Assembly: GCA_951406725.2 (NCBI GenBank)
Contig: OX597816.1
Coordinates: forward strand, 36,890,001-36,954,000
Direction of reading: 5' to 3'
DNA: 64,000 nucleotides
From: Octopus vulgaris
Lineage: Eukaryota
Positions within the stretch are counted from its first letter, which is position 1. Every line of letters starts with the position of its first letter. Shown here one piece after another: positions 2,040 through 30,342 of the stretch. Under the pieces are notes generated by a model. The model made no database searches, was not told the DNA's origin, and saw only the letters and a program-made list of their open reading frames with translations. The position numbers and the translations under genes were made by a program.

Positions 2040-2040
<1 letters not shown>

Positions 2041-2247
2041 TTTATTTAAAGCAGCAGAAAATTCAACAAAACCTGTTACTCTGAGTTTCCCGTTGCCGTT
2101 CATCGGACAGTTTTTTTACGGCAACGGGAAACTCAGAGTAACAGGTTTTGTTGAATTTTCTGCTGCTTTAAATAGAGCATATTACTCTACCACTGGTATT
2201 TGAGTACTCTTTTTTTCCACCTTGTTTCACATTTATGTGTTTACTCC

Positions 2248-2250
<3 letters not shown>
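2040..2250. mobile_element. Small fold-back PLE-terminal element inside (TA)n
   Basis: 60-bp inverted arms 2040-2099 and 2118-2177 (one mismatch), about 70-bp unpaired tail, (TA)n on both sides. Confidence 0.8.
2073..2110 (-). ncRNA. Minimal type I hammerhead ribozyme (CCGATGA core variant)
   Basis: Minus strand ctgt-CCGATGA-a-cg-GCAA-cg-g-GAAAC-tcaga-GTA-acag. Confidence 0.7.
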
Positions 2251-2313
<63 letters not shown>

Positions 2314-2366
2314 GTGAAGGGAAGAAATGGAGCCGAACGAAGATTCTACAAAATTCCTTTTTATTG

Positions 2367-2450
2367 TTTTCTACACATGTTTCAAAGGCTGCAAATTCCC
2401 AAATTCGGATTGAATAAGGAGACCATTCTGCAGCTTTCTCTTCAGGAAAA
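2367..2450 (-). ncRNA. Type I hammerhead ribozyme, intact core, long stem II
   Basis: ttttc-CTGAAGA-gaaagctgca...tgcagccttt-GAAAC-atgt-GTA-gaaaa. Confidence 0.82.
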
Positions 2451-2831
2451 TCTAGGAATTTAAAATCTCAAAACAAATGCGCAGCAAGCTTTTCGAACAA
2501 AACGCTCCCTAGGAGCCCATGGTAAAAATGGCACAAAACTGTCTCTCAATATGCGCTGACGTCAGAGTAGGTGAAGGCCGACGAAAAAATCCGTTGGAAT
2601 AAACCTAGGTCAAACCACGGTCAAATCAGGTAGGGGAAGAATCACAGAAAACCCAAAGAGTGTGAATATATTCTGTATAACTAGTGTTAATGTTCAAATT
2701 GTTTTAAGAATGACAGCTATCTTATTTGGGTGTGAGGAACTACCTACATGTATGTGTGTGTGTATGCGCCTATGTATGTGTGGCAGTATGTTAGGAAGCA
2801 GCTAGAGAGAAAATATATTGTATTGTAGGCA

Positions 2832-3515
2832 TTGCTGGTCAAGCGGCTGATAAAATTCTGTGTCTGTGTGTTCGTCTATGACCAGTTTATATACATTAAT
2901 GTAGAGAGTCCCAATAACAATTTTAGCAACGGGTTTGACAACAGTAGCATTACGGACATTAGCAATCACAGCGATCTCAGTGGCAGGGAATATATAGGTG
3001 ATATTCCATTAAATAGTATTGATAATGGGGTGTATAATGTCGAAGACAGCCGTAGTTCTCACAATCATAATAGTAATAAGAACGCCGTGTTAATATCGGA
3101 AGCCAATCCCAATAGAATAAGGTTATTATCTAGTAATTCCAAGATTAGAAATGCCATTTACCAATGCAGAGTTTATACTGGATCGGATGTCTACTCGTAT
3201 ATCGGAGCGTCATCATCAAAATTGGCAGTGAGAATATCGAACCACTTCACAACTTTTCGCGATTTTAGAAAACAACACGCTACCGGACTAAGTAAATTAA
3301 TCTGGCGTTTGAAGAACGCGAATTCAGCATTTAGACTGGAATGGTCGATTTTATCGGTGGCTGTACCGTTTGATAGGGGCAAAAGAATCTGTAATCTCTG
3401 CAACTCTGAACTTTTTCACATTTTGTTCTCACGAGGGCAGCTCGTTAACGGGATTTTGCAACACTCTTTCAGATGTCCCCACTGGAGGCGACTGACATTT
3501 CTTGCATACATTTGA
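2832..3515 (+). CDS. GIY-YIG endonuclease domain of a PLE; open frame without ATG or RT
   Basis: AIY..YIG, R..H, LSKLIW.LK, W.IL, CNLC..E, LVN, CPH motifs. TTG start lies in the inverted arm and there is no internal Met. Confidence 0.8.
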   Translation: MLVKRLIKFCVCVFVYDQFIYINVESPNNNFSNGFDNSSITDISNHSDLSGREYIGDIPLNSIDNGVYNVEDSRSSHNHNSNKNAVLISEANPNRIRLLSSNSKIRNAIYQCRVYTGSDVYSYIGASSSKLAVRISNHFTTFRDFRKQHATGLSKLIWRLKNANSAFRLEWSILSVAVPFDRGKRICNLCNSELFHILFSRGQLVNGILQHSFRCPHWRRLTFLAYI

Positions 3516-4139
3516 AGCCTAAGATAATTAACACCTTGATGTCCTAAGAAAAGAAAAAAATTGCTTGGAAGAAATTTGGGAAAAATTTTGAATTAAATTT
3601 GAAAGGGAAAATTACTCCCCTTTTAGCGTATGTTCTGCTACTCTTTTAGAAACAATATCAGGGATTATACTCCCCTTCTTTTTGACAAGTCATCTGTATA
3701 TAAACTGGTCATAGACGAACACACAGACACAGAATTTTATCAGCCGCTTGACCAGCAATGCCTACAATACAATATATTTTCTCTCTAGCTGCTTCCTAAC
3801 ATACTGCCACACATACATAGGCGCATACACACACACATACATGTAGGTAGTTCCTCACACCCAAATAAGATAGCTGTCATTCTTAAAACAATTTGAGCAT
3901 TAACACTAGTTATACAGAATATATTCACACTCTTTGGGTTTTCTGTGATTCTTCCCCTACCTGATTTGACCGTGGTTTGACCTAGGTTTATTCCAACGGA
4001 TATTTTCGTCGGCCTTCACCCACTCTGACGTCAGCGCATATTGAGAGACAGTTTTGTGCCATTTTTACCATGGGCTCCTAGGGAGCGTTTTGTTCGAAAA
4101 GCTTGCTGCGCATTTGTTTTGAGATTTTAAATTCCTGGA

Positions 4140-4223
4140 TTTTCCTGAAGAGAAAGCTGCAGAATGGTCTCCTTATTCAATCCGAATTTGGGAATTTGCA
4201 GCCTTTGAAATATGTGTAGAAAA
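4140..4223 (+). ncRNA. Type I hammerhead ribozyme, right-arm copy
   Basis: Reverse complement of 2367-2450 with GAAAC changed to GAAAT. Confidence 0.75.
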
Positions 4224-4431
4224 TAATAAAAAGGAATTTTGTAGAATCTTCGTTCGGCTCCATTTCTTCCCTTCACTAAATATATAAAACTTCAATTATC
4301 CGCGCTAAAGCACGGGGCGAAACCCCATGGTGGTAACCTCAACCGTGTCTTTTCTGGTGTGATTTTTGCTACACAGGTATCGGTTAAATTTTGAATAATC
4401 CGTAACAAGATAATTCATTTATACATTTCAT

Positions 4432-4476
<45 letters not shown>

Positions 4477-4579
4477 GTATGTATATGTAAATATATTAAT
4501 GTGTTCACGTATACTATATGACTTTAGGTCGTAAAATTGCAAATTAATAACCCATATTATATATATATGCATATATATA

Positions 4580-4940
4580 GGCGCAGGAGTGGCTGTGTGG
4601 TAAGTAGCTTGCTAACCAACCACACGGTTGCGGGTTCAGTCCCACTCCGTGGCATCTTGGGCAAGTGTCTTCTGCTATAGCCTCGGGCCGACCAATGCCT
4701 TGTGAGTGGATTTGGTAGACGGAAACTGGAAGAAGCCTGTCGTATATATGTATATATATGTATATGTGTGTGTGTTTGTGTGTCTGTGGTTGTCCCCCTA
4801 GCATTGCTTGACAACCGATGCTGGTGTGTTTAGGTCCCCGTCACTTAGCGGTTCGGCAAAAAGAGACCGATAGAATAAGTACTAAAAGGTGGTGCTCCAG
4901 CATGGCCGCAGTCAAATGACTGAAACAAGTAAAAGAGAAA
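4580..4940 (+). mobile_element. tRNA-derived SINE, family A (internal microsatellite, LINE-like 3' end)
   Basis: Box A-like TGGCTGTGTGG, box B-like GGTTCAGTCCC, 3' GGTGCTCCAGCATGGCCGCAGTCAAATGACTGAAAC; several copies in window. Confidence 0.88.
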
Positions 4941-4962
4941 AGAGAAAGAGATATGTATATAG

Positions 4963-5009
<47 letters not shown>

Positions 5010-5034
5010 TAGATAGACAGACAGACAGACGGAC

Positions 5035-5131
<97 letters not shown>

Positions 5132-6436
5132 CAAAATTCAGCTCTGTTTATGCAAGGCGATTATATCGTATTATATTAAATGTTGCTGCCGCTTTTCTTC
5201 TTTAGCTCGGTGGGTAGCGGGAGATAACAGCGCAAACCGATATACATTATAAAATGCCTCATGACATTATTAAACACAGCAGAGATTGGATTGAAGTTGA
5301 CAAGTATTAAGTGAAATCTTCTTAAATTATATACCAAAACTTCCAACTTGGCTGCACTACCTAGCTTGTAGTGCAGCTAGGGTTAATCTACATGGCTCGC
5401 TTAAGTTCGTCTATATTTAGTGATGCAAATATTCTGGTAGGTTAGCTCACGAAGCCTTAAAAGTTTCGCTTCTCGTTGTTCGCTTTCTCTCAGTAATGTT
5501 GAACTTTTGTTGTTATACAGTATGTTTGAGTATTTCACTTCAAAGTCTTCCATGAAATGTGCGAATGAAACCATATAACGTTACAATTTAAATAAACACC
5601 CATTTGATGAGATTTCGTCGTGCATTAAATCAAATATAAGTAGTCTTATATTATCATTTACTGTTGCCACTTTTTAATCATAATCTCTCCACTATTTACG
5701 GCTATATATTTCCATTTAATTTTTTCCTCTAAGACTTCGTACAATGATCGTATATTAAGTTAAAAGGCGATCATTCCTTAGAGGTTATATTATCTTAATC
5801 GTTTAAAGCTTAGAACACGAACAATCGTACATTAGATTGTGTGAGAGCTCATTAAAATTCCATACATTAATCCAAATCCGCATTTAAATTTTCAAATCAT
5901 GGAAACCATCAGTAGTTTTCAAAAACTTCTATGATCTATCCAAAACCACAGAAACGAAAATGGATAATGAAAGGATATTTTACAATCTATGTTAAAGAAA
6001 AATTCAAAATAAGGAATGAAACTACGAATATTTTAAACAGGAAATACAAAGCAAAGTTTAAATACGGTCGTAATAACAACTGAACTCTATAATTATAACA
6101 AAACACTTGAACCGATTTAATCACCAGATTCATGTTATCACTCTGCTGGAAATTTCACAATTCCCGATCAGGGTGAGCCTAAACACTAAATTGTTCTAAT
6201 CTATTTCTCATTCTATGGTGATGGAGTGAATCACAGACGCTAAATATTCTCAAAGAAGTGAAATTCGCTTCTTAAGTGGACAAAGAAAACTAAAACCCAG
6301 CAACGATTATTTTCGACTTCTTAGAAAAGAGTTGATAATTTGACGAGATTACGAGTTTAGACGGGCAATTAAACCGGCTTTGTGCATACGTACATATGTA
6401 TGTGTGTATACGTGCGTATATGTAAGTATCCGTATG

Positions 6437-6478
<42 letters not shown>

Positions 6479-6641
6479 AATTATGTACAGAAATCTAGAT
6501 CTGAGATTATGCAATAATTTTTTGCTAGTTTATTTGTGTATTTGTCTTTTCTCCTGGTGTTGTATGAATACTTGATGTGGTTTTAGAGTCAAAGTTTGAC
6601 TGCTATCATGGTGGTGTCTTTTAGATGCCCTTAATTATACT

Positions 6642-6711
<70 letters not shown>

Positions 6712-6820
6712 TTCTGTCGTGAGAGACTCAATACACCCATAATAGTAACACACGCACAGGTTCAATTTCACTGCTTTATTATTAACCATAACAAATGCAA
6801 AAACGACGTGTACACACATG

Positions 6821-6873
<53 letters not shown>

Positions 6874-7143
6874 GAAGAAAGAAAGAAAAAGAGAGAGAAT
6901 CTAATCTCAATAAACTTACAATTCGCAGAATGAAGTGATGAATAATAGCAACTGCAATCTCCACGTTTTCTTTTAGGATTTTTATTTTATTCTAAATATT
7001 GACCAGTTTGTATTCGTTGCTTTCATTAATTCTGTACAATATTATTAACACATGTGTTTGTAGTGTGTGTGTGTGTATGTTTGTGTGTATGTTCGTGTGT
7101 GTGTCAGTATGTGTCTCTGTGTGTCAGTGTCTGTGCGTGTCTC

Positions 7144-7176
<33 letters not shown>

Positions 7177-7649
7177 GTGTCTGTCTGTCTGTGTGTGTGC
7201 GTGTCTGTGTGTGTACGTGTGTGTGTGTAAACATTACAGTTGAAATTGGGTATAGAGAGAGAACTTGATACTGAAATGTAGGTACCAAAAAGTTTTGTTG
7301 AAATTGAAACTTCAGATTTTGTGAGACCAAGTTACGCCAGCGAGGATTTTAATAGGAATATCCAGATAACAAATGAAGATAAACGCATTTGATTGTCTGT
7401 TTATAAGTTAAAATGAAAGAGATATAATTTTTTAAAGATAATATCAAGAATAATATCATTTGATCTGCGTTGGGTGAAAATCCTCCGAAAACACCGTTTA
7501 TGTTTCGATGCTACAATGTTACAATACTACTGAAGAAAGAAACACAGTAACTAGATAAGAAAAGAAAACATATAATAGTGAGGAATGGAGATTGTAGAAA
7601 AATGGGGTTTTTTCAATAGCTCTCAGACCTCTTCATTTATAGCCTAAAA

Positions 7650-7990
7650 CTGTATAATAATATAAGGAGCACTCCGTCGGTTACGACGATGAGGGTCCCA
7701 GCTGATACGATCAACAGAACAGCCTGCTCGTGAAATTAACGTGCAAGTGGCTGAGCACTCCACAGACACGTGTACCCTTAACGTAGTTCTCAGGGAGATT
7801 CAGCGTGACACACAATGTGACAAGGCTGGCCCTTTGAAATACAGGTACAACTCATTTTTGCCAGCTGAGTGGACTGGATCAACATGAAATAAAGTGTCTT
7901 GCTCAAGGACACAACGTGTCGCTTGGAATCGAACTCACGACCTTACAATCGTGAGCCGAATGCCCTAACCACTAAACCACGCGCCTTCAC
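7650..7990 (-). mobile_element. tRNA-derived SINE, family C
   Basis: Head GGCGCGTGGTTTAGTGGTTAGG..GTTCGATTCC; body matches 63870-64000; (TTA)-type tail. Confidence 0.88.
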
Positions 7991-8369
7991 AATAATATAA
8001 TAAACAACAAGGTATGCTCTTCTTTCCCTGTTCAACAACAAAAGAAAGATAGCGGTAGCTGAAAAACACCAAAAGCAATAATGAGGAGAAGGAAAAAGAA
8101 AATAGAATAATTGAGAGGGTAAGCAAATTCTCATTGAATTTTATGGTGCATCTTATATTTATTCTTCTGTAAATTTTGAAGTATATAACTTGCTTTGCGC
8201 AAACAGTTACAAAGAATATCGTTTCTAGAAACTTTGGAGCATTTGTCGAATGATAAGTTTCTTTTTTAACTGTAGTTGTAAGTAGGCGTGTAATCAAGGG
8301 AAGGTTATGATATATAAATGTATTGTTACAAGTGACCATCTATATTTGAATAAACTAGAAACAACAATT

Positions 8370-8960
8370 TAAAGGCCCAAAATTTTGGGCGAGGGGGACA
8401 GTCGATTAGATCGACTCCAGTACGCAACTGGTACTTAATTTATCAATGCCGAAATGATGAAAGGCAAAGTCGACCTCGGCGCAATTTGAACCCAGAACGT
8501 AAAGACCGACGACATACCGCTAAGAATTCCGCATGCTAACGTTTCTTATTTCTTTATTACCCACAAGGGGCTAAACATAGAGTGGACAAACAAGGACAGA
8601 CATAGGAATTAAGTCGATTACAACGACCCCGGTGCGTAACTGGTACTTAATTTATCGACCCCGAAAGGATGAATAGTAAAGTCAACCTCGGCGGAATTTG
8701 AACTCAGAACGTAACAGCAGACGAAATACCTATTTCTTTATTACCCACAAGGGGTTAAACATAGAGTGGACAAACAAGGACAGACATAGGAATTAAGTCG
8801 ATTACAACGACCCCAGTGCATAACTGGTACTTAATTTATCGATCCCGAAAGGGTGAAAGACAATGTCAACCTCGGTGGAATTTGAACTCACGGCGTAACG
8901 ACAAACGAAATACCGCAAAGCATTTCGCCCGGTGTGCTAACGTTTCTGCCAGCTCGCCGC
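8370..8960 (-). mobile_element. tRNA-derived SINE, family B, three tandem body units
   Basis: Head GGCGAGCTGGCAGAAACGTTAGC, box B GAGTTCAAATTCC, core GACTTTGCCTTTCATCCTTTCGGGGTCGATAAATTAAGTACCAG repeated at about 185 bp. The core resembles the MetaSINE domain from memory. Confidence 0.88.
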
Positions 8961-10098
8961 TTTAATGTGAGTAACATCTTGTCTCAAATAGTTTGTTGTC
9001 GCTCCAACACACAATTTCGGTTGATATCCAAAATTCAGTCCTACCTTGGCACAGTATACCAAAGAACTGTTGAGAGAGTTCCCTCAATCATGCTGTTAGA
9101 AGATTTTATACGATTACGCGTTCGTTCGGTAATTGATCAACGTTGGTTTGACACATGTTTTACTTTAATGAAATTAACAGACTGAATCTTGTATCTATTC
9201 AGGATTTTATATCTATGTACTCTGTAAAATAAAAATCAGGCAGAAATTAGGAAGTCTCTGACTAACATTTGTACAAAAACTCAAACTAAAACTTGCAATG
9301 CGCTTCAAAGATTTCCTACTTCTAATTCTACGACTGGAAAAAATGTTTGGATATGTATTTTATGTTATCTCAAATCCTATTACGCTTAAATGATTCATTA
9401 GTGAATTGGGAATCCTCTCTAAAAGCAGGAACATCGGAATATAAGTCAAAACTTTGGCGACTACATTACAAAGAATATTAGGTGGGAGATTAGAAATTTT
9501 CATTGACACATTTCATGAGGCTTATGATAAGAAACAACCCCCCACCCACACACACACGCACACGCACACACACACACATACGTACACACAACTACACACA
9601 CACACACACACACACACAAATATGCACACACATACACAAGTGGTGCAGTATCTTATATACATCTTGATATGTACAGTGCGCATTTCTAAGGTAAAACGTT
9701 TTCTGAGATATATTTGAATTTACTCGTCACCATGCAGATGAGAAGTGGTTTGATTATTATTATTTTTAAGCATAAAAATATTGTATAGAATTATGCTGGA
9801 ATCTACTAACAAGAGTAAAGGAGAATGGAATCGAAATATCACCTTAAGGAATTTACACTTTATATTTTAAACGCACACACATACACACACATACATACAC
9901 TTACAATCATATACATACACATACATACATACATATACACGCACACACATATGCATACACACACATACTTACACACAAGCGCACGCCCACACATATTTAT
10001 GTTCATCGTAAAAGTTGATATTTCTAGTGCATTATACGTATATATATATATATATATATATATAAATACGTATGCGTGTGTGCGGGTGTGTATATAAT

Positions 10099-10188
<90 letters not shown>

Positions 10189-10209
10189 ATTTGTGTATGT
10201 ATCTATTTA

Positions 10210-10406
10210 TGCCATGATAGATCGTTAGCTCCTACACGTACTTTTTTCCCTCCTTGTCTCTCTCCTGTTTTTTTGTGTGTATCTTTCTGTCGAAGAGCGT
10301 AGGCTTGAAACGTAAAAGACTTTGTCTATTCCTGAGCGTTATACTAATACATTTGTTTGCTTGTACTCCACTGCCTTCGTCTTTTGTTTATTTTCGTAAA
10401 CTTTCC

Positions 10407-10411
<5 letters not shown>
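10210..10411 (+). mobile_element. Probable PLE terminal remnant with hammerhead-like motif, ending at (TA)n
   Basis: tcttt-ctgt-cGAAGA-gcgtaggctt-GAAAC-GTA-aaaga near 10283-10319; non-canonical core. Confidence 0.35.
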
Positions 10412-10451
<40 letters not shown>

Positions 10452-10454
<3 letters not shown>

Positions 10455-10690
10455 AGGCGCGTGACTTAGTGTTTAGGGTGCTGAACTCATGATCGTAAGT
10501 TTGTGGTTTTGATTCCTGGACCGGGTGACTCAATATGTTCTTGAGCATAACACTTCATTTCACGTTTCTTCAATTTATTCAGTTGGCAAAAATGAGTAAT
10601 CCTACGACGAAATATTGTCCCGTTTAGGTGGTGAAAACGGGAAAACGGTCCCACGAGCTTAATGACTCGGGAGGGAACCTCACTTCACAC
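10452..10690 (+). mobile_element. SINE with family C head and different 3' part
   Basis: GAAGGCGCGTGACTTAGTG..GGTTTGATTCC..TTCTTGAGCATAACACTTCATTTCACG. Confidence 0.75.
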
Positions 10691-11544
10691 TGTGACATCT
10701 AGCTAGACGCTCGACCTGCAAGAATAACAATCAAATTTTCACTTCAATTACAACTCACTGCTTAAACAAATCAAAATATATTCGATAATGTTGTCCTAAA
10801 TAATGACAGTGTAAATTTATTTTCAATATTCGTATATGAAATAGAAAGCAGGAAATTGGTTAGTTGTCCATAAATCTTGAATTAATATCATGTTAAGAAT
10901 ATACAGCATCTATATATATTTCAATTCTAAAATATGCATTTATTAATTAACTTTCTAATTATCAATTCAAATCACAGAAGATTGATTGCCAAACTGAATA
11001 TATTACATTACTGGATTATACGATTTAGTTTACTCTGGTATTTTTGCTGGCGAATTTATCCAAATATCAATATATAAAGTATAGTCTATTCTAGATCCTT
11101 AAGATATTATCGACGTCTCGTGTTGAACCTGTATATGATATAAGCTGGTATTGTATTTTTCGCCGAATAAGCATTTCAGTTAAATCGCTGTTATTAACAT
11201 ACGAAAATAATCTGAAATGACAGGACACATTCCACTGTAAACATAATCCAGTTTATAAAACATCAAATGTCAATATTCAATTTTTCACATCAATATATCT
11301 TGAAATAATACAACTAGAGATAATAACCGTCCCACACAAATTCCTACACAGACATGAGGGAATATGCGGGTGTGTAAACGTGCGTGTATGACCGACTGCC
11401 TATACAGCATTCCTGAATTTTCACACATTTTCCCTCCTTCTTCTTTCATACAGAATTACGTTAGGAAGATATTCAGCACTCGAGATTAATCATTCGTTAT
11501 TACAAAAATATTTATACTCAACTTTATTACATATCTGTATATTG

Positions 11545-11690
11545 GTTCAAATTTTGGCACAAGGCTAACAACTTCATGGGTGAGGGTAGATCGGTGACAT
11601 CGATCCCGGTGGAATTTGAACTCAGAACGTAAAGACGGACGAAATGACGGTAAGCATTTCCCCCGACATACGTACGGTTGTGCCAGCTCA
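11545..11690 (-). mobile_element. Degenerate SINE family B
   Basis: GGAATTTGAACTCAGAACGTAAAGACGGACGAAAT on plus strand. Confidence 0.65.
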
Positions 11691-12602
11691 CTATATTATA
11701 CATATATTTTGGTAAAGTAGCTCTTCCCCACATTCTCCTTCATTGCGGACTGGAAAATTGGTTCCCTGCTGAAACAACTTGCTGTCATTTCTTTTTGGGC
11801 TCCCGCATCCACAGAAGACTGCAGTTAGTTTAAGATACCATTTGCAATAGTAATGTTCATAGTTGAATGAAGAAGTTTAAAATAAATGAAGCAGTAGTGA
11901 GGACAAACCGTGCAGCAGAATACTTAAACTGAGACCACAGATGCAAATCGCCAACGAATGAACGAATTCTTTTTCTCGAACAGACGAATCGCAGTCTCTG
12001 AGCTTGATACACCTGATTGTGATCATAAAGCATGGACAAAGATAGCGGAAGGCTCATCTGTTAGAAACGTTTGAAGCTTATGAAGACACTTTTGTCCAAT
12101 AAAATGATGTCACACATCTTCTCCAAGTCCACAGAAGAATCAGCAAGGGTTACAGAAATATCATGAGGAATATTTTGGGGGATGAAAAGTGCGACCATCT
12201 CCTTGATTTTATGGGCAGTGGCCGTGCCATGAAAAGCTAACGGTACACTAGTAAAGTACACTAGACCTCAAGAAATACTTAAACAAGATATTAGAAGAAA
12301 GATTGAACAAGAATCTGAAAACAATTCACCTTCATTATATCAATATACTATGAAGTCATGCTGGTCTATCTTTCCACCGCTCATCCCGGATCCGGCGTCA
12401 TTGACTTCCACCCGCTCCGTTCAATGTGGGTCAATCTTCATTTAGAAAGATTTGATAGCACAAACGAATTGAAAGTGGTTGCAAATACTACAGTAGTGAA
12501 TATAGCAGAATACAGCTAACTTTTATTTCAAAGAGCATTCGAATTCATAAAAATGGTTTCGACGAGGCTTCATATGCTTGTTATGTCGATTATTTTCGGT
12601 TG

Positions 12603-12830
12603 TGAGCAGGCAGAATCGTTAGCACGCTGGACGAAATGCTTCGCAATATTTCGCTCGCAATATTTCGCTCGCAGCTACGTTCTGGGTTCAAATTCCACCA
12701 AGGTTGACTTTGCCTTTCATTGTTTCGGGGTCGATAAACTAAATACCAGCTACATAGTGGGGTCGATCTAATCGACTAGTCCCCTCCCCGAAGATTTCAG
12801 GACTTATGCCTATAGTAGAAAGGATTATTT
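12603..12830 (+). mobile_element. SINE family B, single unit
   Basis: Head, box B, core and tail ..CCTATAGTAGAAAGGATTATT. Confidence 0.8.
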
Positions 12831-12999
12831 GGGGTTGCGCTTCTGTAGAGAAAAACAAATAATCTACCAATTGTATAATTTGAACTACCTTTTTCAGTTA
12901 ATTAAAAAAGACATACTCAATTTTGCTTCCAATTAGAAACGACACCAGTGTGAAAACACACACACATACACACACGCACGCGTACGCATATAAAAAATC

Positions 13000-14290
13000 A
13001 ACGAAGAGAGTTATGGTATCCTTGAATCTTGTGAACCAGTATACTAATAACGCCCCGACTGTACAATAGAAGCAATCAAATTCTGGTTGGAAAACTACCC
13101 CGAAGAAAGACCAGGTCGTATCAACAAAGAATTTATAATTGGAACATTGAAATTTATCCTCCAAAATATTTACTTGATACCAATTGCTACTGCCAAAAAT
13201 TTGGAATTGTGATGGGAAAAAGATAGCACCAGTTCTTGAAAATCCAGGAATGTATGTCAAGAATCACGAAAACCCACTAATGTATATCAAGAGTCGCAAC
13301 AAAAACATGGCAACCCCTTATGCAAATACATAAGAGAGAATTGGAGAAGATATCTAGATGATGATTGTTTAATTATTTGGAATGAAAATATTGTTAAATT
13401 ATCCGGATTTAAAACACTGCTCAATAAATACTAATGCAATGGAATACAGCAAAATAAGTTTAATTTCTAAATATTATGTTAAACGAGATATTAACCATAT
13501 TGAAACAAACATCTGTAATAAATATTATTTAGCAGAAGCCAACCGAGACACGTTAAATGATTTGCGCAACTGTGTTTTATAAAAATACATGAGACCTACG
13601 ACTTCTTGAAATTAAAACCGTGCTCGTCGAGAGGCAATATCGATTTTCTCACTAAAAGATGATGGGATAAAACGTGCTAAGAGAATTAATATCCAGACAC
13701 TAAAAGAAGTAAAATGATATAATAAACCTGATTTTAAAATATTACCCACAGCCCTTGAAACAATGAGGCATATAACACCAAAATATATATAACGACAAAT
13801 CCAATCAATATAACACCAAAATCGATCTATGCTCAATAGTGACTTTAAGGTGAATCAAATTGTCCGCGCACATAAAATTATTTGAAGTAAAAACAACCCA
13901 AATCACTGAAGAGAATAGAAAATCATTCCAAAAACAAGGGAAACAAGATTTTAAAAAATGTAGTCGACTTTAATGTTAAAAATGCCCCCATCTATTGAAA
14001 TTCCATTTTAAATATGGACAAAGATTATAAAATAAGACTGAGTGTGCATGCGCGTCCGAAACCTTAATCTGTTATAACCTGTTCAAGATATGCTCAGAAA
14101 TATATCGGAGAAACTGGAATATATGTTTTAAATTTACATATAACCAGAAAATTGGTAATTACCTCCACTGTTTCAAATAATAACTATTATTGACTACCTT
14201 CCCTAAAATTGATTTAACCTCCTGATTTAATTACAAAGTTACTGTTTTCCTAACAACACGGACAACGTTTTATTTTTCTGTTACCATTTC
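13000..14290 (+). mobile_element. Heavily decayed PLE (Naiad-like RT to GIY-YIG)
   Basis: Fragments EAIKFWLENYP..INKEFIIGTLKFIL, YCQKFGIVMG, WRRYLDD, KQPKSL, C.R..C..CP, ITCSR..KYIGETG; ends at (ATAG)n. Confidence 0.72.
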
Positions 14291-14317
14291 ACTATAGATA
14301 GATAGATAGATAGATAT

Positions 14318-14359
<42 letters not shown>

Positions 14360-14414
14360 GAGTGCCAACGAACGAAACTCAGACCTTAGGTCACTCCGTT
14401 ACTTCTACTAAATG

Positions 14415-14458
<44 letters not shown>

Positions 14459-15599
14459 ATTCAAAAGTCACTATACATAGGAAAACATTTTTTTATATTA
14501 TATTGTGTGTGTGTGTGCGTGCGTGTGTATGTGTGCATAACTGCAGTGACAGATCTTCATTTACGTATTTACTTTAGTAAGTACGTATATGTCAACACAT
14601 TATTAATGCACTGGTGCGCTATTCACCACTCTTCATTGGTGCTTTTGCAATTTAAATACATAATTCTATCTGATCCTGAAAATTATATCATTCATAGAGT
14701 ACCATGTGTGAATAATATTCTTAAGGTCCACACTTTCTCACTCGCGACCACTTCTACTCTTTGTCACTAACTCGGTTTTTAAACAAATTAGATAATGTTT
14801 ACATTTTTAGATTTGTCACATCCTAAGCTATATTTTCAGCTACAAAGTTTGAAATTTTTTTTCAAGTAATATTACTTATTACAGTACTAAGAAGACGAGC
14901 TGGAAGAATCGTTAACAGGCATGGTGAAAGCTTCGTGGCATTTCATCTGTCTCTACATAGTTTTCTATTAGAAAATGAAAGCACTATCATTATACGAGGA
15001 GGCATTTTTATTAAATAAACAAACGCAAAGCATTACAACGATCAAAGTTGTAAGACCTAAAGTTTTAATAAGCTTTTTGTTTGCTTTTAAACTTTAATTC
15101 AGTATTAAGGATTTAAATTATTGTTTCTGAGGATAAATTGACACGATAGTATGATTGGATTTTCAGCATATCAGAATTCAGATTTTTTTTTTATTTTCAG
15201 GCAAGTTGACTACAACAGTAGCTGAATTCCAAGCTTTATTTTCATTTTGCATGAATTTCGACTAACAAGGGCAAGTGGCTTTTCATGCCTTACGGTGGGT
15301 GCGTTAGCTATATTTGCATTTAAAAAAAAATATATTAGGCATGGCTTTACTATTCATCTGATCAGATTCACTTCTTACTATATAGTTGATATATTCTCAT
15401 ACCTCTCTTCTTGCTAGCTAGCTCTTTTTACTAAATATATATATATATATATAGGTAATTTATTTCTTGCTGTTATTAAATTAATATTCTTGTAGAAAAT
15501 AAGTTTTTGGCGCGTTTGTACTATGCACTTTGTTTCAATATAAAAATTTTATATACAGTGAATATATAGGATTTAATATTCTTTACAAATACATTTCTC

Positions 15600-16310
15600 A
15601 TTATCCTAAAAAATTACTTATTTTAAAGGAATTGAATATACAAGCAGTGGGGGGGGGGACCTTCCCTCCAACATTACCTCTAGTTTTACTCCATTGAGTA
15701 GATCTATTGTCTCTGGTATTCCAGAATATTCTACTTGATTGCTCTGAAATATCATCTCCAGCCCGTAACCCCAGTAGTTTATTTGTTGGCTCCGTGTTAT
15801 CTGGATGATTTGAATGTCGTTGCCTCCTCTTCATCTCCTTCTTCAAGAACCGCTGTCATCAGCCATTCGGGTATAATTTCTGGTGGAATCCTGCCTATCA
15901 TGACCCTGACAACGCGTTTGCCTTGGTAGGTAGGCAGGAGAGTTCATTTCTCCGAATATATCGCCAAAGTGGTGTACTTTCTTGCCTCCTCTTCGGAGAC
16001 GAAAGTAACTGTCACTGCCAAATTTTCTTCCTCTCGTGTAAAATGTAATAATGTCCTTGTATCCTTCCAGGCACTTCTCCGCGCGTTGCAATTTCAGTTC
16101 TCTTTCCGCTTCTCGATAATTTTCTATACACTATCTCCCTTTTTCTCATTCTATTGGTTTCTTTGCCTGGGGGCAAATGTCAACTTTATGTTAGACCCTT
16201 CCCTCTTTACCAAGAAATCATCCTCGAATTCCACTGCATGTTGCTCCGGCAAACCTGGATTCACAGCACCCTGTCTTCCAGTTACTGAATCGTAGCTCTT
16301 CGTCTCCATT
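15600..16310 (-). pseudogene. Possible decayed LINE ORF1-like fragment
   Basis: GC-richer block; frameshifted translation with TFVSEEEARKY..LPTYQGKRVVRVMIGRIPPEI, RRM-like; family not identified. Confidence 0.3.
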
Positions 16311-18140
16311 TTGACACCTTCAAAAATAAGAACACAAGCCTGCTAGCAGGCTAAATACAGTAAAATTTCCTTTTGTAAGCAACTCAATAATACTACCAAA
16401 ATAAAAGATGGTGTCATACTCATAGGCAGAATCAAATGATTACGTGTAGTGGAAGAGTTCAAATACTGGGGAATCATAATTATGACTACAACATTGTTCT
16501 AATTCAATTAACTAGTAGAACTAATTTTATACGTTTACAGAAATGTAGAGTGACGTTTATCTCTACAGGAGGGAATCGGGTCTGAAAACGTATTGAACAT
16601 ATTACCGTTATATAATTTAATGATTATATCCCGATTCCTCTACACAGAATGTACCCACATCTGAACCAATACCATGTGGGGGAGCCCTCGTAGTTATAGA
16701 CCATGTCAGGCCGTAAAGCAAGTTACAATCCTGAAGTTTGTTTATAAATGCCGCTAAAGTAGTGGAATTCTTATACTTAGGGTTTGAAAAGGAATTCAGA
16801 TGGGTCCTATATCGCCTTTTGAAGTCTATCGTACCACCTAGATATACCTTGATTTGTTTTGTATCTTGTTCTATTTACTGTTCTTAACCTTGATATCTTG
16901 TATCACTTTTGTCTCATATTTTAGATTATTAGACATTTTAGACGATTTAGGCGGTCTGCCATATTGAAGATTCACGTTTTTATTCCTATATTTCTCAGCC
17001 GTTCATTCGCTTTGTGCCTCCTATGTTAATCACGCATATCTTTTTTACATGTACTCCTTATTTATATATGATTTTATATGTATTTTTATGTATCTTTATA
17101 TGCTTTTATATATCTCCCATATTTTTACGCATGCTTGGTTTTATTATTTATGCCTTTGGAGACTCTTTACGCCTATACATGCACGATTTATGTTGATGTG
17201 TATAAATGTATATGACTCAATTACTTTGATTGAATATATTCCTTTATGTGTTTGGGAATTTGGTTGACTGCCTAGGATTTGCGTTTTCTACTTTGTATGA
17301 AATATGTATGTATGTATGGATGGATGGATGGGTGTATATATATGTATGTATGCATGCATGTATATATGTATGTATATATATGTATATATATATTATATAT
17401 TTCTATATGTATGTATATGTATACATACATACATAGAGTGAATATGAAGGAAGTAATGATGGTCTGTTTATGCAGTACGGTGTATAAAGTGTTGCCTTGA
17501 TCTTGAAGACGAAGAAATGCCCTTTTCGACAATGAATGATGTTTTCTTATGGTGCGAATATGAATATTAAGTTCTTATAATTAATCCTTTGCTCCAGTTA
17601 GTAGAAGGAGAATGTAACTAAAAGATTTCTTCACAATATGTTATTCTTTTAAATTTGAATTCATCTCAGACTTAGTTTTTAAATAACTATAGATGGTGAT
17701 TTAGGAACTAAATTGCTGCTATTTGAAGCAGGTCGCGTTTCAATTAATTAATTCAATTTTTTTTCTTTCAGAATGACTAATAATTGCCGCTAGGATATTT
17801 TTTATGCTGAAAATTTCAATTAATTAACAATTTTTTTGGATAGTTAATTATCGAAATTCACGCCATTTTCCCGTTGGTATTATTTCTACAAGTTCGTCTT
17901 AATTTTAATTATGCAAACTATACTGACCAAAAATTAGCTGTAACGCTGTTCCAACATATAAAAACTTTTTTATCGGTCTGTATTTGAATACGTTGCCGTG
18001 TTTTAACCATAGGTTGGTTTTGGTTGAAAAGGATCGAGATCAAAAGCTTTTCAGTCATGACCACATCGTCTTTTTTCTGTCCTTTGAAAAGGAGTCTGCT
18101 GTCACTTCTAGTATATATATATATACATATACACACACAC

Positions 18141-18188
<48 letters not shown>

Positions 18189-18267
18189 TAATATATATAT
18201 ATATATACACGTATAGCGTATATATATATATATATATAATTTGGATTTATTCCCTAATATTTATTAT

Positions 18268-18353
<86 letters not shown>

Positions 18354-18359
<6 letters not shown>

Positions 18360-18775
18360 TAATAAATATTAGGGAATAAATCCAAATTTACAGGGAAAAA
18401 TCAGATTTAGGATTGAATCCAATTTTATAGTAAAATATTATATAATATTAATTAGAGACAAAACCACTATTATGCAAATCAAACAAAGAAAGACTTAATC
18501 CAATACATAAAAAATTTTATATAAATTAAATAAAATTAAGTTATCCACTACAATTGTTTCTTGTCACTTCTAAGGACATTCAGACCTTCTATTCAATTTT
18601 AAATTATGAATTTAAAATTGAATAGAAGGTCTGAAAACCACCTGATGAATGTCCTTAGAAGTGACAAGAAACAATTGTAGTGGATAACTTAATTTAATTT
18701 AATTTATATAAAATTTTGTATGTATTGGATTAAGTCTTTCTTTGTTTGATTTGCATAATAGTGGTTTTGTCTCTA

Positions 18776-18790
<15 letters not shown>
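18354..18790. mobile_element. Fold-back PLE-terminal element inside (TA)n
   Basis: Tail 18354-18437, inverted arms about 18438-18582 and 18646-18788, nested hairpin 18579-18635. Confidence 0.82.
18638..18683 (+). ncRNA. Type I hammerhead ribozyme, intact core
   Basis: ccac-CTGATGA-a-tgtc-cttagaagt-gaca-a-GAAAC-aatt-GTA-gtgg. Confidence 0.85.
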
Positions 18791-18826
<36 letters not shown>

Positions 18827-18843
18827 GTGTGTATGTATGTATG

Positions 18844-18914
<71 letters not shown>

Positions 18915-19262
18915 CAGACTTTGTTTGGAGGTTTCAGAATGCATCTCAATTTCAAAAAACTTGTAGCCGTTTTTGAATAGATTTATTCAAATACCAAACT
19001 AATTTCAACAACATTTTGACGATCAATGGTACAAATATATATAAAAAGAAGTGAGGTTTTAGAGAGGGTTTTAAATTATCACGTAATAATTGGAGTAACA
19101 TGTTTATACCATCAAGTGTTCAAATTTTGAGAAAAAAGAACTAAACACATCACGAGAGAAATTGTAAAAGAATTTATTTTCTCTATCTCTCTCTTTACAT
19201 TTTGCTCTTACTTCCCCACTTATTTTATAAAAAAAACTCAATATGACTGAACTTTCAATAAT

Positions 19263-19405
19263 GTACTTTACTCTTTTACTTGTTTCAGTCATTTGACTGT
19301 GGCCATGCTGGAGCACCGCTAAGTTACAGGGATGTAAACACACCAGCATCGCTTGTCAAGCGATGTTGTAGGGGGACAAACACAGTCACACAAACACACA
19401 CACAA

Positions 19406-19460
<55 letters not shown>

Positions 19461-19708
19461 TATAATTTCAGTAAAACAATTAAGATTCAAGTGAGTTCCA
19501 ATGAATTCACAAGAATGTGGTACTTAACTTAGATGCACCAGAAATCTTTATGGTATTAGCCATAAAGTAATGTGGGCTGATTATAAACAAGAATAAAAAG
19601 AAACAAGAATGGATTAGTTGTTCAGTATGAAACAATTGTACTGAACAACTAATCCATTCTTGTTGCTTTTTTCTTGTGTGTGTGTATATATATACACACA
19701 CACACACA

Positions 19709-19802
<94 letters not shown>

Positions 19803-19988
19803 TATACATATACATATATACGACGGGCTTCTTTCAGTTTCCGTCTACCAAATCCAATCACAAGGCTTTGGTCGAAGAAGACACTTGCCCGAGTAGAAGA
19901 CACTTGTCCGAGGTGCCACGCAGTGGGACTGGACCCGGAACCATGTCGTTCGTAAGCAAGATACTTACCACACAGCCACTCCTGCGCC
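19263..19988 (-). mobile_element. SINE family A interrupted in its internal microsatellite
   Basis: Head at 19820-19988 and 3' part at 19263-19390 match 4580-4940. Confidence 0.85.
19463..19676. mobile_element. Fold-back PLE-terminal insert with half hammerhead
   Basis: Inverted arms about 19587-19627 and 19639-19676 around tGAAACaattGTA; tail on left. Confidence 0.65.
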
Positions 19989-20009
19989 CATACTTTGTTT
20001 ATGATTTTC

Positions 20010-20480
20010 ACAGAACGTTAACATTTACTATCGATCCCTGTGAAACTCAATGAAATTTATGTGGACATTTGAACATTTGAAGGTTTAAACATATTAGTAA
20101 AACTCCTCGAGGAATGTGAAGACGCATGCTGGAAAGCGGACCATTTTCCAATCGCAGTTGTATGTAGAGGGTTTGTTGGACACAGTGTGAGACGACTGTT
20201 GTTATCGTTAGGCCTAAATCATCGTAAAGTCAATACAACCATGACCGATATCAAAACTACAGTGGAGAAGGCTAGTCACTGGATTGGGTTAAAAAGAGAC
20301 GATGAGCGATGGCTAGAAGAATATTGAGCTTTATTTGATAACCAGTTGATCTAGAAAGCGGGGCCTCATATCAGTGAGGGGTTCCGGTGTGCATTGATGC
20401 CGTCGAGAGGTAGGCCCCGAAACGGCGCGCATTCTCACCTGATGATCCCTTACATTTGCTGGCTTCCGGTATGCGGAGTT
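20010..20480 (+). mobile_element. 3' end of a restriction-like-endonuclease LINE (Hero/NeSL-like)
   Basis: From 20103: LLEECEDACWKADHFPIAVVCRGFVGHSVRRLLLSLG..VEKASHWIGLKRDDERW, matching the EC..W...P.EVGCRGF..AS.WI..KR C-terminus of such elements. Confidence 0.65.
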
Positions 20481-20604
20481 CTTGACTGGTAGCACTTGCA
20501 TATACAAGTTGTTTGCAAGACATCTAGTCCAATCTTCTCATTTTAAACTCTCCTAAAAAAGAGAAAAAAAACTGAGATATATATGTGTATATATATATAT
20601 ATAT

Positions 20605-20805
20605 ATTTATTATATAGAAGGAGCTTCTACAGGACTAGAACTGTTTCATTCAAGAGAAATCATCAGGAAGCTCCTGATGATTTCTCTTGAATGAAACAGT
20701 TCTAGTCCTGTAGAAGCTCCTTCTATATAATAAATTAATTTTACTCTGCTATGTATTGAGTACCTTATTTACTGTGGTTAACCCCGAATCAACCCGGGAC
20801 CTACA
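20605..20805. mobile_element. Fold-back PLE-terminal element inside (TA)n
   Basis: Perfect palindrome 20605-20735 with 3-nt centre, plus about 70-bp tail. Confidence 0.85.
20622..20672 (-). ncRNA. Type I hammerhead ribozyme, intact core
   Basis: agcttc-CTGATGA-t-ttc-tctt-gaa-t-GAAAC-ag-ttctagtc-ct-GTA-gaagct; core repeated on plus strand at 20674-20712. Confidence 0.85.
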
Positions 20806-20867: not shown

Positions 20868-20872
<5 letters not shown>

Positions 20873-21035
20873 AATATTAGGGAATAAATCCAAATTTACA
20901 GGGAAAAAATCAGATTTAGGATTAAATCCAATTTTATAGTAAAATATTATATAATATTATTAGAGACAAAACCACTATTTTGCAAAACAAACAAGGAAAG
21001 ACTTAATCAATACATAAAATTTTAATAAAAAGTCA
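20868..21035 (-). mobile_element. Second, truncated copy of the 18354 element tail
   Basis: AATAAATATTAGGGAATAAATCCAAATTTACAGGG..GACTTAATC nearly identical to 18358-18520; abuts (TA)n. Confidence 0.85.
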
Positions 21036-21797
21036 ATATATATATACGCACACATTGACACTATAGGTTTTCTTTTTAATCTATTTTAATTCAAGAAACA
21101 TTCTTTCATAGCGTGCATCAAGTACTTTACTAGCCAATCCACTGCAGTTTGGGTCGAATATGTAGCAACATTAAAGATGTTAATTTTATCGACTTCATAA
21201 TTTACAGACAAAATTTGTAATTTCTTGGTATGAACTGAAATTTCATATTCATTTACTAGTCAGTGTTTGTGTGTTTGCGTGTGTGAGTGTCTGTGTGAGT
21301 GTGTGTGTGAGTGTCTGTGTGAGTGTGTGTGTGCGTATGTTTGTGCGTGTGTGTGTGTATAGGTATGCAAAGTTTTATTTGCAGTATAGAAACCTCATTT
21401 CTTTTCCTTAGAACTATATTTTCTAATCACTTTTACACATATAAATGGTTCAGAAATAGTTGAAATTCCATCCAAGAGAAGTACAATAATAGATTCTATT
21501 GTTTAAGCAAAAGTTTTCCGCAGACTTATGATTAAATTATATTTCGTAAATATAATAAAAATACATTTTTTGAAAATGTTTGTTTGCATATGAGAATTAT
21601 AATTAAATTTACTGTCATGCTTTTTAATTCTAGTGAATAGTGTGCATTTGTGTTATTCTTCTAAAACATCATGTCTGATGCCCTATTAAACAAATCTATG
21701 AACTGAATATGATCACTGTCTTTCACGTTGACAAATATTATAAACATTTGCATGTGTGTATGTGAGTATGCATGTACATATATGTACAGATACATAT

Positions 21798-22972: not shown

Positions 22973-23345
22973 TGATATTGATGATCTGCGTAGTTAAATG
23001 ATTCTTTTAAGCATAGTTTGCATTTACCTATAATGTATTATAATGTTGAGCTTCTTTTATTATGGACTGAGCCAGTGTACATTGTATATTTTATGATTTA
23101 AGATCATGTATGTGTGTGGCTAATGATCCCGAGAATTTGGAGTCTTTCTTAGTGAAAGAATTTAAGTGAGCTTGATATCGACGTCTAAAGTATATGGTAC
23201 TGCCTATATACCTCTTTGCTTGGTGTTTACCTGGTGTTTCTACACGACATTTATAAACCACATTTTTTACGCAGACAAAGGCCCCCAAGCGAGCATATAT
23301 CAGATATTACAGGTTTTCCTTTTTGTTCTACTATTTACATTGGTC
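22973..23345 (-). mobile_element. PLE GIY-YIG fragment, copy of 25464-25840
   Basis: KNVVYKCRV..RYIGST..FRRRYQAH..LATHIHDLK; high DNA similarity to the 25.5-kb copy. Confidence 0.82.
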
Positions 23346-24817: not shown

Positions 24818-24819
<2 letters not shown>

Positions 24820-27784: not shown

Positions 27785-27862
<78 letters not shown>

Positions 27863-27952
27863 ACTGTTCCGTTATAGAAAGGTCAATAGAAAATGTATAC
27901 CACCTGATAAGAGTTGAATATTATTTATTTAATGGACAGTACATGTCTTTAA

Positions 27953-28007
27953 ATGCTACTAATAGTTTTATATGTTGAAAAATATCTCCCACATATTCAT
28001 CAGGCAT
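27953..28007 (-). ncRNA. Hammerhead ribozyme with one core substitution; tail runs to (TA)n at 27856
   Basis: atgc-CTGATGA-atatgt...acatat-AAAAC-tatta-GTA-gcat. Confidence 0.65.
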
Positions 28008-28054
28008 AAACCACATATCACAACGAGCTATATATATGTACACAGTGTAGGATC

Positions 28055-29999: not shown

Positions 30000-30116
30000 T
30001 ATATAGATGTGCGCATATCAGTATACTTGTGTGTTTGTATGTGTGACTATATGTGTGTACGTGCGTGTGTGGGCGCGTGTGCTTGTGTGTGTGCGTGTAT
30101 TTGTGCGTGTATGGTT

Positions 30117-30342
30117 CGAGCTGGCAGAAACGTTAGCACACCGGGCGAAATGCGTTGCCGTATTTCGTCTGCCGTTACGTTCCGAGTTCAAATTCCGCCG
30201 AGGTTGACTTTGCCTTTCATCCTTCCGGGGTCGATAAATTAAGTACCAGTTACGCACTGGGGTCGATGTAATCGACTTAATCCCTTTGTCTGTCCTTGTT
30301 TGTCTCCTCTGTGTTTAGCCCCTTGTGGGTAGTAAAGAAATG
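30117..30342 (+). mobile_element. SINE family B, single unit
   Basis: CGAGCTGGCAGAAACGTTAGC..GCCCCTTGTGGGTAGTAAAGAAAT. Confidence 0.9.

What the first reader, a model, noticed from the sequence alone, without database searches (positions are those of the whole stretch)
2040..20805. Recurrent hammerhead fold-back elements targeted to (TA)n microsatellites
Seen: five inserts with no obvious shared arm sequence (2040, 2304, 18354, 19463, 20605) share one plan: microsatellite / inverted arm / turn / arm + unpaired tail / (TA)n. A type I hammerhead, or half of one, lies in the arms. In the four small inserts the turn falls at or inside the ribozyme, and the tail-less arm carries the more complete HHR. 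Established: PLE termini carry minimal type I HHRs and PLEs form inverted ends. Inference: an abundant class of 200-450 bp non-coding ribozyme hairpins, either products of PLE integration or PLE-mobilised retrozyme-like units. The coupling of turn position to the ribozyme looks systematic, and I do not know of a description of it.
Basis: partly seen in the sequence, partly recalled or inferred. Interest (0 to 1): 0.82.

Follow-up and report, generated by a model that had tools for sequence, protein, structure and literature searches.

The report
Penelope retroelement fold-back scars in octopus
These hairpin-shaped inserts in (TA)n repeats are real and carry hammerhead-ribozyme motifs, but they are most likely ordinary short insertion scars of Penelope-like jumping genes in a likely octopus genome, and in the one family checked in other sequencing runs the fold-back point did not follow the ribozyme.

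Summary
All five fold-backs are real, all ten ends touch microsatellite, and four carry a whole type I hammerhead motif (one a half). The 2.1-kb insert holds a Penelope-like GIY-YIG endonuclease 88% identical to an Octopus sinensis protein. The plan (head-to-head inverted 5'-truncated copy, one-sided tail, hammerhead near the 3' end, (TA)n targets) is the published Penelope-like insertion structure, and this scan noted it before in three other genomes. The claimed coupling of turn to ribozyme holds in 3 of 5 inserts only. At 2304 the turn lies about 450 nt away; at 18354 about 30 nt upstream, hidden by a 14-nt deletion. In contigs of four public runs, 0 of 22 arm ends from 11 other fold-backs of the 18354 family fall in the ribozyme, and depth drops about 40-fold before reaching it. 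Copies are simply very short, and in three families the ribozyme lies 25-70 nt from the start site. The hairpin is predicted to trap the ribozyme, and no tandem retrozyme units were seen. Small new points: tails of 69-148 nt (30-40 published), very high copy number, and an endonuclease lacking the linker cysteines.

The parts
2040..2249 (.). Insert 1: tail-less arm 2040-2099 (element sense on -), loop 2100-2117, tail-bearing arm 2118-2177 (+), tail 2178-2249
2073..2110 (-). Type I hammerhead of insert 1, one core mismatch, predicted cut after 2077
   Evidence: alone it does not fold as a hammerhead
2304..4434 (.). Insert 2: 5'-truncated PLE (+, 2896-4434) with head-to-head inverted copy 2304-2895; tail 4287-4434
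2896..3515 (+). 3' end of a PLE ORF: Asn-rich linker and C-terminal GIY-YIG endonuclease; linker cysteines absent
2367..2450 (-). Type I hammerhead with long stem II in the tail-less arm of insert 2, predicted cut after 2372
4140..4223 (+). Same hammerhead in the tail-bearing arm of insert 2, one substitution at the base of stem III
18355..18783 (.). Insert 3: tail 18355-18438, tail-bearing arm 18439-18610 (sense on -, 14-nt deletion over the first hammerhead box), turn about 18607, tail-less arm 18609-18783 (+)
18638..18683 (+). Perfect-core type I hammerhead with palindromic stem III, predicted cut after 18679; compensatory stem III change in other copies
18238..18270 (+). 33-bp inverted copy of the insert 3 tail end, across a (TA)42 run
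   Evidence: read
19455..19677 (.). Insert 4: tail about 19455-19586, tail-bearing arm 19587-19627 (sense on -, starts within 1-2 nt of the cut), tail-less arm 19626-19677 with half hammerhead 19629-19640
20605..20804 (.). Insert 5: tail-less arm 20605-20668 (sense on -), 3-nt loop, tail-bearing arm 20672-20735, tail 20736-20804
20620..20675 (-). Perfect-core type I hammerhead of insert 5, 8-9 bp stem I, predicted cut after 20628; the only one predicted to fold as a three-way junction alone
20870..21036 (-). Solo 5'-truncated copy of the insert 3 family, with tail, no inversion, no hammerhead
27857..28030 (-). Solo hammerhead-bearing 3' end at (TA)n, no inversion (motif 28007-27953, one core mismatch)

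Best explanation
The five inserts are fold-backs in microsatellites that carry hammerhead motifs, and they are likely 5'-truncated insertions of several Penelope-like retrotransposon families, each likely made of two short cDNAs joined head to head. Inferred steps: (1) the GIY-YIG endonuclease nicks both strands of a (TA)n tract; (2) one nick primes reverse transcription at the outer start site (arm plus tail), the other at a fixed inner A/T-rich site 69-148 nt further in (tail-less arm), probably helped by a few bases of likeness to the microsatellite; (3) both cDNAs usually stop after 30-90 nt; (4) their 3' ends are joined over 2-3 nt of microhomology, or one snaps back on itself, which gives the same product; (5) later point changes and deletions decay one arm. 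The hammerhead is a passenger of the terminal repeat. The turn falls in it when it lies 25-70 nt from the inner start (2040, 19463, 20605) and misses it when it lies further in (18354) or the cDNAs are long (2304). Shown here: anatomy, fixed start positions, endonuclease identity, turn positions. Shown in vitro for another PLE: two-strand nicking and two start sites (PMC11167929). Inferred: that these steps made these inserts, and the joining step.
For: Insert 2 joins a PLE endonuclease ORF to hammerhead, inner start and tail: 2088 relatives at E<=0.001; 88% over 60 aa to O. sinensis XP_029632940; XP_036366068 has RT motifs, the Asn-rich linker and the endonuclease, 78% over 119 aa. In 4 of 4 runs (TA)n is joined at exactly 18439 (29, 38, 37, 7 contigs); in 3 of 4 it is also listed at tail ends 18356/18365: fixed inner and outer starts. 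11 fold-back joints of other copies: 0 of 22 arm ends inside the hammerhead (-41 to +4), 7 of 11 wholly downstream of it. Folded depth falls 89-92% between +71..85 and +26..40, only 1.7-2.9% remains at the core, and it is flat across the motif with no step at the cut. Only 1 of 10 arm ends in the window fits the cut site; the nine others lie 12 nt or more upstream of it, so the template was uncut, as in vitro (PMC11167929). Inner starts overlap the flanking microsatellite by about 2-7 nt (read). Published: inverted 5'-truncated copy, one-sided tail, microsatellite bias (PMC8557442); palindromes at the inverted junction and Asn-rich inserts (PMC3846280); paired minimal hammerheads 100-700 bp apart on opposite strands, ascribed to truncated PLEs (PMC4209133).
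Against: Tails are 69-148 nt, not the published 30-40. In 3 of 5 inserts both arm ends do lie in or at the edge of the hammerhead, and in 19463 one arm starts at the cut. The test beyond the window covers one family only; 11 joints is a small, filtered sample, 233 loose ends were not shown, and turns more than about 40 nt upstream of the reference cannot be seen. Depth is no copy number, and its fall may partly be subfamily divergence (indel variants near 18500). No listed contig spans this locus's own turn. Microhomology at the inner start departs from the 'not homologous' start reported in vitro.
Confidence: 0.8

Rival explanations
1. Some families (above all 18354) are copied from a short non-autonomous hammerhead RNA of roughly 280 nt, a SINE-like or retrozyme-monomer passenger of PLE proteins. 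The fold-back would form as in the best explanation; only the template differs.
For: Very many copies (2111, 2244, 2587 contigs laid in the three larger runs; 3 pieces in this window). The 4 of 11 joints that pass the hammerhead, plus this copy, end in a narrow zone at about -53 to -81. A compensatory stem III change at equal depth in 4 of 4 runs and no listed variant in the core boxes or stem I suggest selection on the ribozyme. PLE-derived retrozymes are described (10.64898/2026.07.22.740005).
Against: The zone coincides with the edge of my reference, so it may be a visibility artefact. No head-to-tail joint among 11; listed tail-end loose ends are microsatellite, not a next monomer. Insert 2 shows the same plan on a coding PLE. 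A conserved ribozyme is expected of PLE terminal repeats too.
Confidence: 0.2
2. The turn is set by the ribozyme: self-cleavage or stalling at its stems ends the cDNA, which then folds back.
For: 3 of 5 inserts turn in or at the edge of the motif; 19463 starts within 1-2 nt of the cut; 20605 ends at the 5' edge of stem I. In the metagenome scan one of two distinct hammerhead-plus-inversion loci (L007/L036) has its inverted match starting at the first box, though such loci were selected for having the motif.
Against: 0 of 22 arm ends in the motif, and flat depth across it, in the 18354 family; turns 30 nt and about 450 nt away in 18354 and 2304; offsets from the cut scatter (-1, -12, -22, -33 to -40, -40, -47, -70, -75); solo copies run through or stop short of the motif; ribozyme mutants did not change insertion in vitro (PMC11167929). 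Length alone predicts about 90% of ends within the 45 nt where the motif lies in the three positive families (borrowed from another family and confounded by divergence).
Confidence: 0.1
3. The palindromes are assembly or library artefacts.
For: This locus's own turn is not spanned by any listed contig; such structures trouble short-read assemblies (PMC8557442).
Against: Arms differ by substitutions and indels in 4 of 5 inserts. Fold-back joints of the same family stand in 4 of 4 runs, and 2 of 11 recur in two runs of different studies and species labels. The inner start is fixed across runs.
Confidence: 0.02
4. They are MITE-like or foldback DNA transposons with terminal inverted repeats.
For: Inverted arms and TA flanks.
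Against: One-sided tails, fixed 3' ends with variable 5' ends, solo copies, hammerheads and a PLE endonuclease.
Confidence: 0.02

Closest known systems
Insertion unit of canonical endonuclease-bearing Penelope-like elements (Craig et al. 2021, PMC8557442 fig. 2; Arkhipova et al. 2013, PMC3846280)
   Same: Adjacent inverted 5'-truncated copy, tail on one side only, hammerhead in the terminal repeat, microsatellite targets, palindrome at the inverted junction, Asn-rich stretch between RT and endonuclease.
   Different: Tails 69-148 nt against 30-40; most copies cut down to the last 100-250 nt; the insert 2 endonuclease lacks the CX2-5CxxC linker proposed to guide microsatellite targeting.
Poseidon element of Anolis carolinensis in vitro (Frangieh et al. 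2024, PMC11167929)
   Same: Two start sites bounding the tail, both strands nicked and extended, AT-rich target, uncut RNA as template.
   Different: Start sites here are further apart and the inner start shows 2-7 nt likeness to the target; the paper does not explain the head-to-head joint in the parts read.
Minimal type I hammerheads of metazoan PLEs (Cervera and De la Pena 2014, PMC4209133)
   Same: Core boxes, short stem I, palindromic stem III, family-wise covariation, pairs on opposite strands 100-700 bp apart.
   Different: The G10.1-C11.1 pair is absent in the four whole motifs; 20605 has a long stem I and closed stem III; 2304 has a 55-nt stem II region.
Non-LTR retrozymes (Cervera and de la Pena 2020, PMC7229834; bioRxiv 10.64898/2026.07.22.740005)
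   Same: Small, non-coding, AT-rich, type I hammerhead, linked to PLEs.
   Different: Retrozymes are head-to-tail tandem units expressed as circles; these are head-to-head, variable in length, and predicted to bury the ribozyme in duplex.

Membership tests
EN+ Penelope-like element insertion | RT with C-terminal GIY-YIG endonuclease (insert 2) | tested here: met
   Endonuclease with YIG, R, H and CCHH residues; RT motifs in the 78% identical XP_036366068. Pfam gave no hit; the atlas gave a GIY-YIG lead on 11% of one cluster.
EN+ Penelope-like element insertion | Parent ORF for the four small inserts | not testable with these tools
EN+ Penelope-like element insertion | Head-to-head inverted 5'-truncated copy | tested here: met
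   5 of 5 inserts; 11 further joints.
EN+ Penelope-like element insertion | Tail on one side only, with fixed ends | tested here: met
   5 of 5; fixed junctions at 18439 and 18356/18365. Length (69-148 nt) exceeds the usual 30-40 bp, a described trait rather than a strict criterion.
EN+ Penelope-like element insertion | Type I hammerhead in the terminal repeat | tested here: met
   Whole motif in 4 of 5, half in 1.
EN+ Penelope-like element insertion | Target-site duplication | not testable with these tools
   Flanks are microsatellite.
Neptune clade of PLEs | CX2-5CxxC linker before the GIY-YIG core | tested here: not met
   Absent in insert 2 and XP_036366068, present in 4 of 4 more distant relatives aligned. 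Clade left open; no tree built.
Minimal type I hammerhead of PLEs | Core boxes, stem I, palindromic stem III, covariation | tested here: met
   compensatory 18673/18676 change in 4 of 4 runs.
Minimal type I hammerhead of PLEs | G10.1-C11.1 pair | tested here: not met
   Read from the motifs: 0 of 4.
Minimal type I hammerhead of PLEs | Self-cleavage | not testable with these tools
   Needs an assay; folding z-scores -1.6 to +0.6 for 6 motifs.
Non-LTR retrozyme | Head-to-tail tandem units each with a hammerhead | tested here: not met
   None in the window; 0 of 11 joints. The reference lacks sequence upstream of -70, so the run test is weak.
Non-LTR retrozyme | Linear and circular monomer RNA | not testable with these tools
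   Only contigs; X11 is RNA by guess.
MITE or foldback DNA transposon | Symmetric terminal inverted repeats, fixed unit length | tested here: not met

The most novel reading that the evidence does not exclude
Octopus carries a short non-autonomous hammerhead RNA that PLE proteins have copied tens of thousands of times into (TA)n. Its fold-backs record in vivo two-strand, two-start priming with long tails and target microhomology, and seed the genome with perfect 30-180 bp hairpins that could feed RNA editing or new microRNAs.
Probability: 0.15. Interest if true: 0.55.

Novelty: new member of a known kind. Interest (0 to 1): 0.25.

Why it matters
Mostly ordinary. How PLEs form inverted ends is still called open (PMC8557442), and thousands of young, tiny fold-backs with two fixed start sites are a cheap genomic read-out of it. 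They also warn annotators: such scars look like MITEs or microRNA precursors (weak Rfam precursor matches below gathering score at 2072-2145, 18550-18679 and 19584-19677). Had the turn been set by the ribozyme, it would have given PLE hammerheads a first in-vivo role; the data here do not support that.

Tried and rejected
Rfam scan at E<=5: no hammerhead family among the 150 of 201 rows shown, only microsatellite and hairpin microRNA noise. No genome held, so no genome-wide scan. Pfam found nothing for the endonuclease or 15 of 15 relatives; the word-index protein search found 0 of 113 candidates. Metagenome pattern scan: 120 of about 330 stretches seen, 5 of 120 with stems I and II, mostly chance; 3 loci (2 distinct) had an inverted copy; too few and selected for the motif. 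My first descriptor (stem II up to 40 nt) missed the insert 2 hammerhead and I wrongly noted it as absent until. A hammerhead-like stretch at 3533-3590 was not significantly like the 18354 motif and was dropped. The swapped-order boxes at 20415-20445 do not form a hammerhead by inspection. The uniform-null P of 0.004 for 0 of 16 ends is crude, since ends are paired and filtered, and I do not rely on it. The RNA-by-guess run X11 cannot show expression. Look-ups of earlier findings by place and by sequence were blank. Three inverted pairs (32536-33456, 34907-35205, 41581-41871) were not assigned and are left out of all counts.
Full report
Setting. The window is 35% G+C and rich in microsatellites. 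No genome is held for it. The closest named relatives of its one informative protein are from Octopus sinensis and Argonauta hians, so the host is likely an Octopus species (inference).

Observation. All five inverted-arm inserts exist. Arms are 60, 592, 144 (plus an inner 25), 41 and 64 nt. Four of five pairs differ by substitutions or indels; the 20605 pair matches 64 of 64. Each has a one-sided tail: 72, 148, 84, about 124-132 and 69 nt. A type I hammerhead descriptor with stem II up to 40 nt found 2 perfect-core sites in the whole window, both in these inserts (2 in 10 shuffles together). It found 4 sites with one mismatch, 3 of them in these inserts (7 in 10 shuffles together). Allowing a longer stem II found the motif in the arms of insert 2 and one in another PLE remnant, 3 hits against a mean of 0.04 in 100 shuffles. 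So 4 of 5 inserts have a whole motif and 19463 has the 3' half. Rfam showed no hammerhead among the 150 of 201 rows listed. None of 6 motifs folds better than shuffles; only 20605 is predicted to form the three-way junction alone. In other copies of the 18354 family, stem III shows a compensatory double change (18673 and 18676) at equal depth in 4 of 4 runs, and none of the 25 listed variants hits the core boxes or stem I. That is the best evidence that the motif is under selection.

Identity. The loop of insert 2 holds the end of an ORF. HMMER found 2088 relatives at E<=0.001. The alignment shows a GIY-YIG core with CCHH residues, and RT motifs upstream in the longer relatives. O. sinensis XP_036366068 has RT, the same Asn-rich linker and the endonuclease, 78% identical over 119 aa. 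Pfam names none of them; the atlas gives a GIY-YIG lead on 11% of one cluster. Insert 2 is thus a 5'-truncated PLE whose 3' end reads hammerhead, inner start, tail, (TA)n, with an inverted tail-less copy head to head. The small inserts have the same order without an ORF; their parents could not be reached.

Turn against ribozyme. Arm 5' ends relative to the predicted cut: 2040, -22 and -33 to -40; 19463, -1 to +1 and -12 to -14; 20605, -40 and -47; 18354, -75 and -70; 2304, -523 and about -1320 (the 19463 and 2304 figures worked out by hand from those coordinates). Three of five turn in or at the edge of the motif, and 1 of 10 ends fits the cut. The innermost pair is 18605/18609 with a 3-nt loop, letters in other copies show the inner hairpin is parent sequence (tables 5c and 7), and the tail-bearing arm has lost 14 nt between 3-nt repeats.

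Test in other runs. I laid 18355-18783 on contigs of 4 of the 24 runs listed (three species labels, four studies): 2111, 2244, 2587 and 187 contigs. (TA)n joins at exactly 18439 in 4 of 4 runs and at the tail ends 18356/18365 in 3 of 4, so inner and outer starts are fixed. All 11 joints listed are fold-backs; 0 of their 22 arm ends fall between -41 and +4, 7 of 11 lie wholly downstream of the motif, and 2 of 11 recur in two runs. Depth folded onto the element falls 89-92% between +71..85 and +26..40, is 1.7-2.9% of the peak at the core, and is flat across the motif. Limits: one family; depth is no copy number; indel variants near 18500 add to the fall; 233 loose ends and 7143 pieces were not shown; turns far upstream are invisible; no listed piece spans this locus. 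In the window, 20870-21036 (same family) stops short of the motif without inverting, while 27857-28030 and 24819-26112 run through a motif without turning there.

Mechanism. In vitro, the Anolis Poseidon protein nicks and extends both strands of AT-rich DNA, starts at two sites that bound the tail, and uses uncut RNA (PMC11167929). Applied here (inference): one nick in (TA)n primes at the outer start, the other at the inner start, where the element resembles the microsatellite over about 2-7 nt (read). Both cDNAs stop early, and their ends join over 2-3 nt overlaps or by snap-back, which these data cannot tell apart. In 2040, 19463 and 20605 the cut lies 37, 37 and 23 nt from the inner start, where most cDNAs end; in 18354 it lies 104 nt away and turns miss it. 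In a transcript of the whole insert the antisense arm always comes first, and forcing the hammerhead fold costs 58, 56 and 77 kcal/mol in the 3 inserts computed, against 7 in the solo copy. The hairpins are therefore unlikely to be working ribozyme units.

Literature seen. PMC8557442 (Craig 2021): passages. PMC11167929 (Frangieh 2024): parts 1-2 of 4. PMC3846280 (Arkhipova 2013): passages. PMC4209133 (Cervera 2014): parts 1-2 of 4. PMC7229834: passages. bioRxiv 10.64898/2026.07.22.740005: part 1 of 5 and passages. No supplements were read; Craig's family tables list Octopus elements and may cover these families and their tail lengths. Eight searches found no paper on turn position against the hammerhead or on Octopus fold-backs; the library lacks most subscription papers. 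The HERO and SINE labels, and the link of cephalopods to heavy RNA editing and new microRNAs, are recalled. Three earlier notes of this scan from other genomes read the same pattern as PLE scars; they are unchecked AI notes, and I had stated my reading before seeing them.

Verdict. A real, well-observed feature, best filed as new members of a known kind: short PLE insertion scars. The novel claim, ribozyme-set turning, fails where it could be tested and stays untested in three families. Long tails, high copy number and the missing linker cysteines are modest additions. Interest 0.25.

Noticed in passing
window 2896-3515 (+): The PLE endonuclease lacks the CX2-5CxxC linker (an Asn-rich stretch stands there, as in O. 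sinensis XP_036366068) yet this copy sits in (TA)n; that linker was proposed to guide microsatellite targeting.
   Followed up: partly
window 24819-26112 (-): Decayed PLE 3' end: ORF remnant 25561-26112, hammerhead-like motif 25227-25144 with a 65-nt stem II region, ending at (TA)n; runs through the motif with no fold-back there.
   Followed up: partly
window 45281-46930 and 57560-60178: Two old inserts with decayed inverted ends at microsatellites; translations show PLE-type RT motifs by eye, only a weak tblastn hit for the first and none for the second; no credible hammerhead found.
   Followed up: partly
window 1-189 (+), 16626-16874 (-), 23049-23285 (-): Further PLE endonuclease remnants; the window is dense in PLEs.
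   Followed up: no
window 18238-18270: 33-bp inverted copy of the insert 3 tail end facing the tail across (TA)42; a second tiny insertion or a snap-back within the microsatellite.
   Followed up: no
window 20050-20580 (+): C-terminal end of a non-LTR ORF resembling HERO-type elements (label recalled, not tested); its 3' UTR has both hammerhead boxes in swapped order at 20415-20445.
   Followed up: partly
window 32536-33456, 34907-35205, 41581-41871: Other inverted pairs, the last beside (TA)n with direct sub-repeats out to 42656; not assigned.
   Followed up: no
window 47929-51047 (-): LINE with AP endonuclease and RT, broken by stops or frameshifts.
   Followed up: no
window 8372-8966, 28932-30347, 37570-39945; 4580-4947, 19266-19394, 19823-19995: A dispersed repeat with a 184-bp sub-unit, and two SINE-like repeat families (label recalled).
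   Followed up: no
L007/L036 about 170 nt upstream to 60 nt downstream of the motif; L119: Hammerhead motifs with an inverted upstream copy in metagenome contigs, L007 between (AAT)n tracts: probably the same scars in other animals' DNA.
   Followed up: partly
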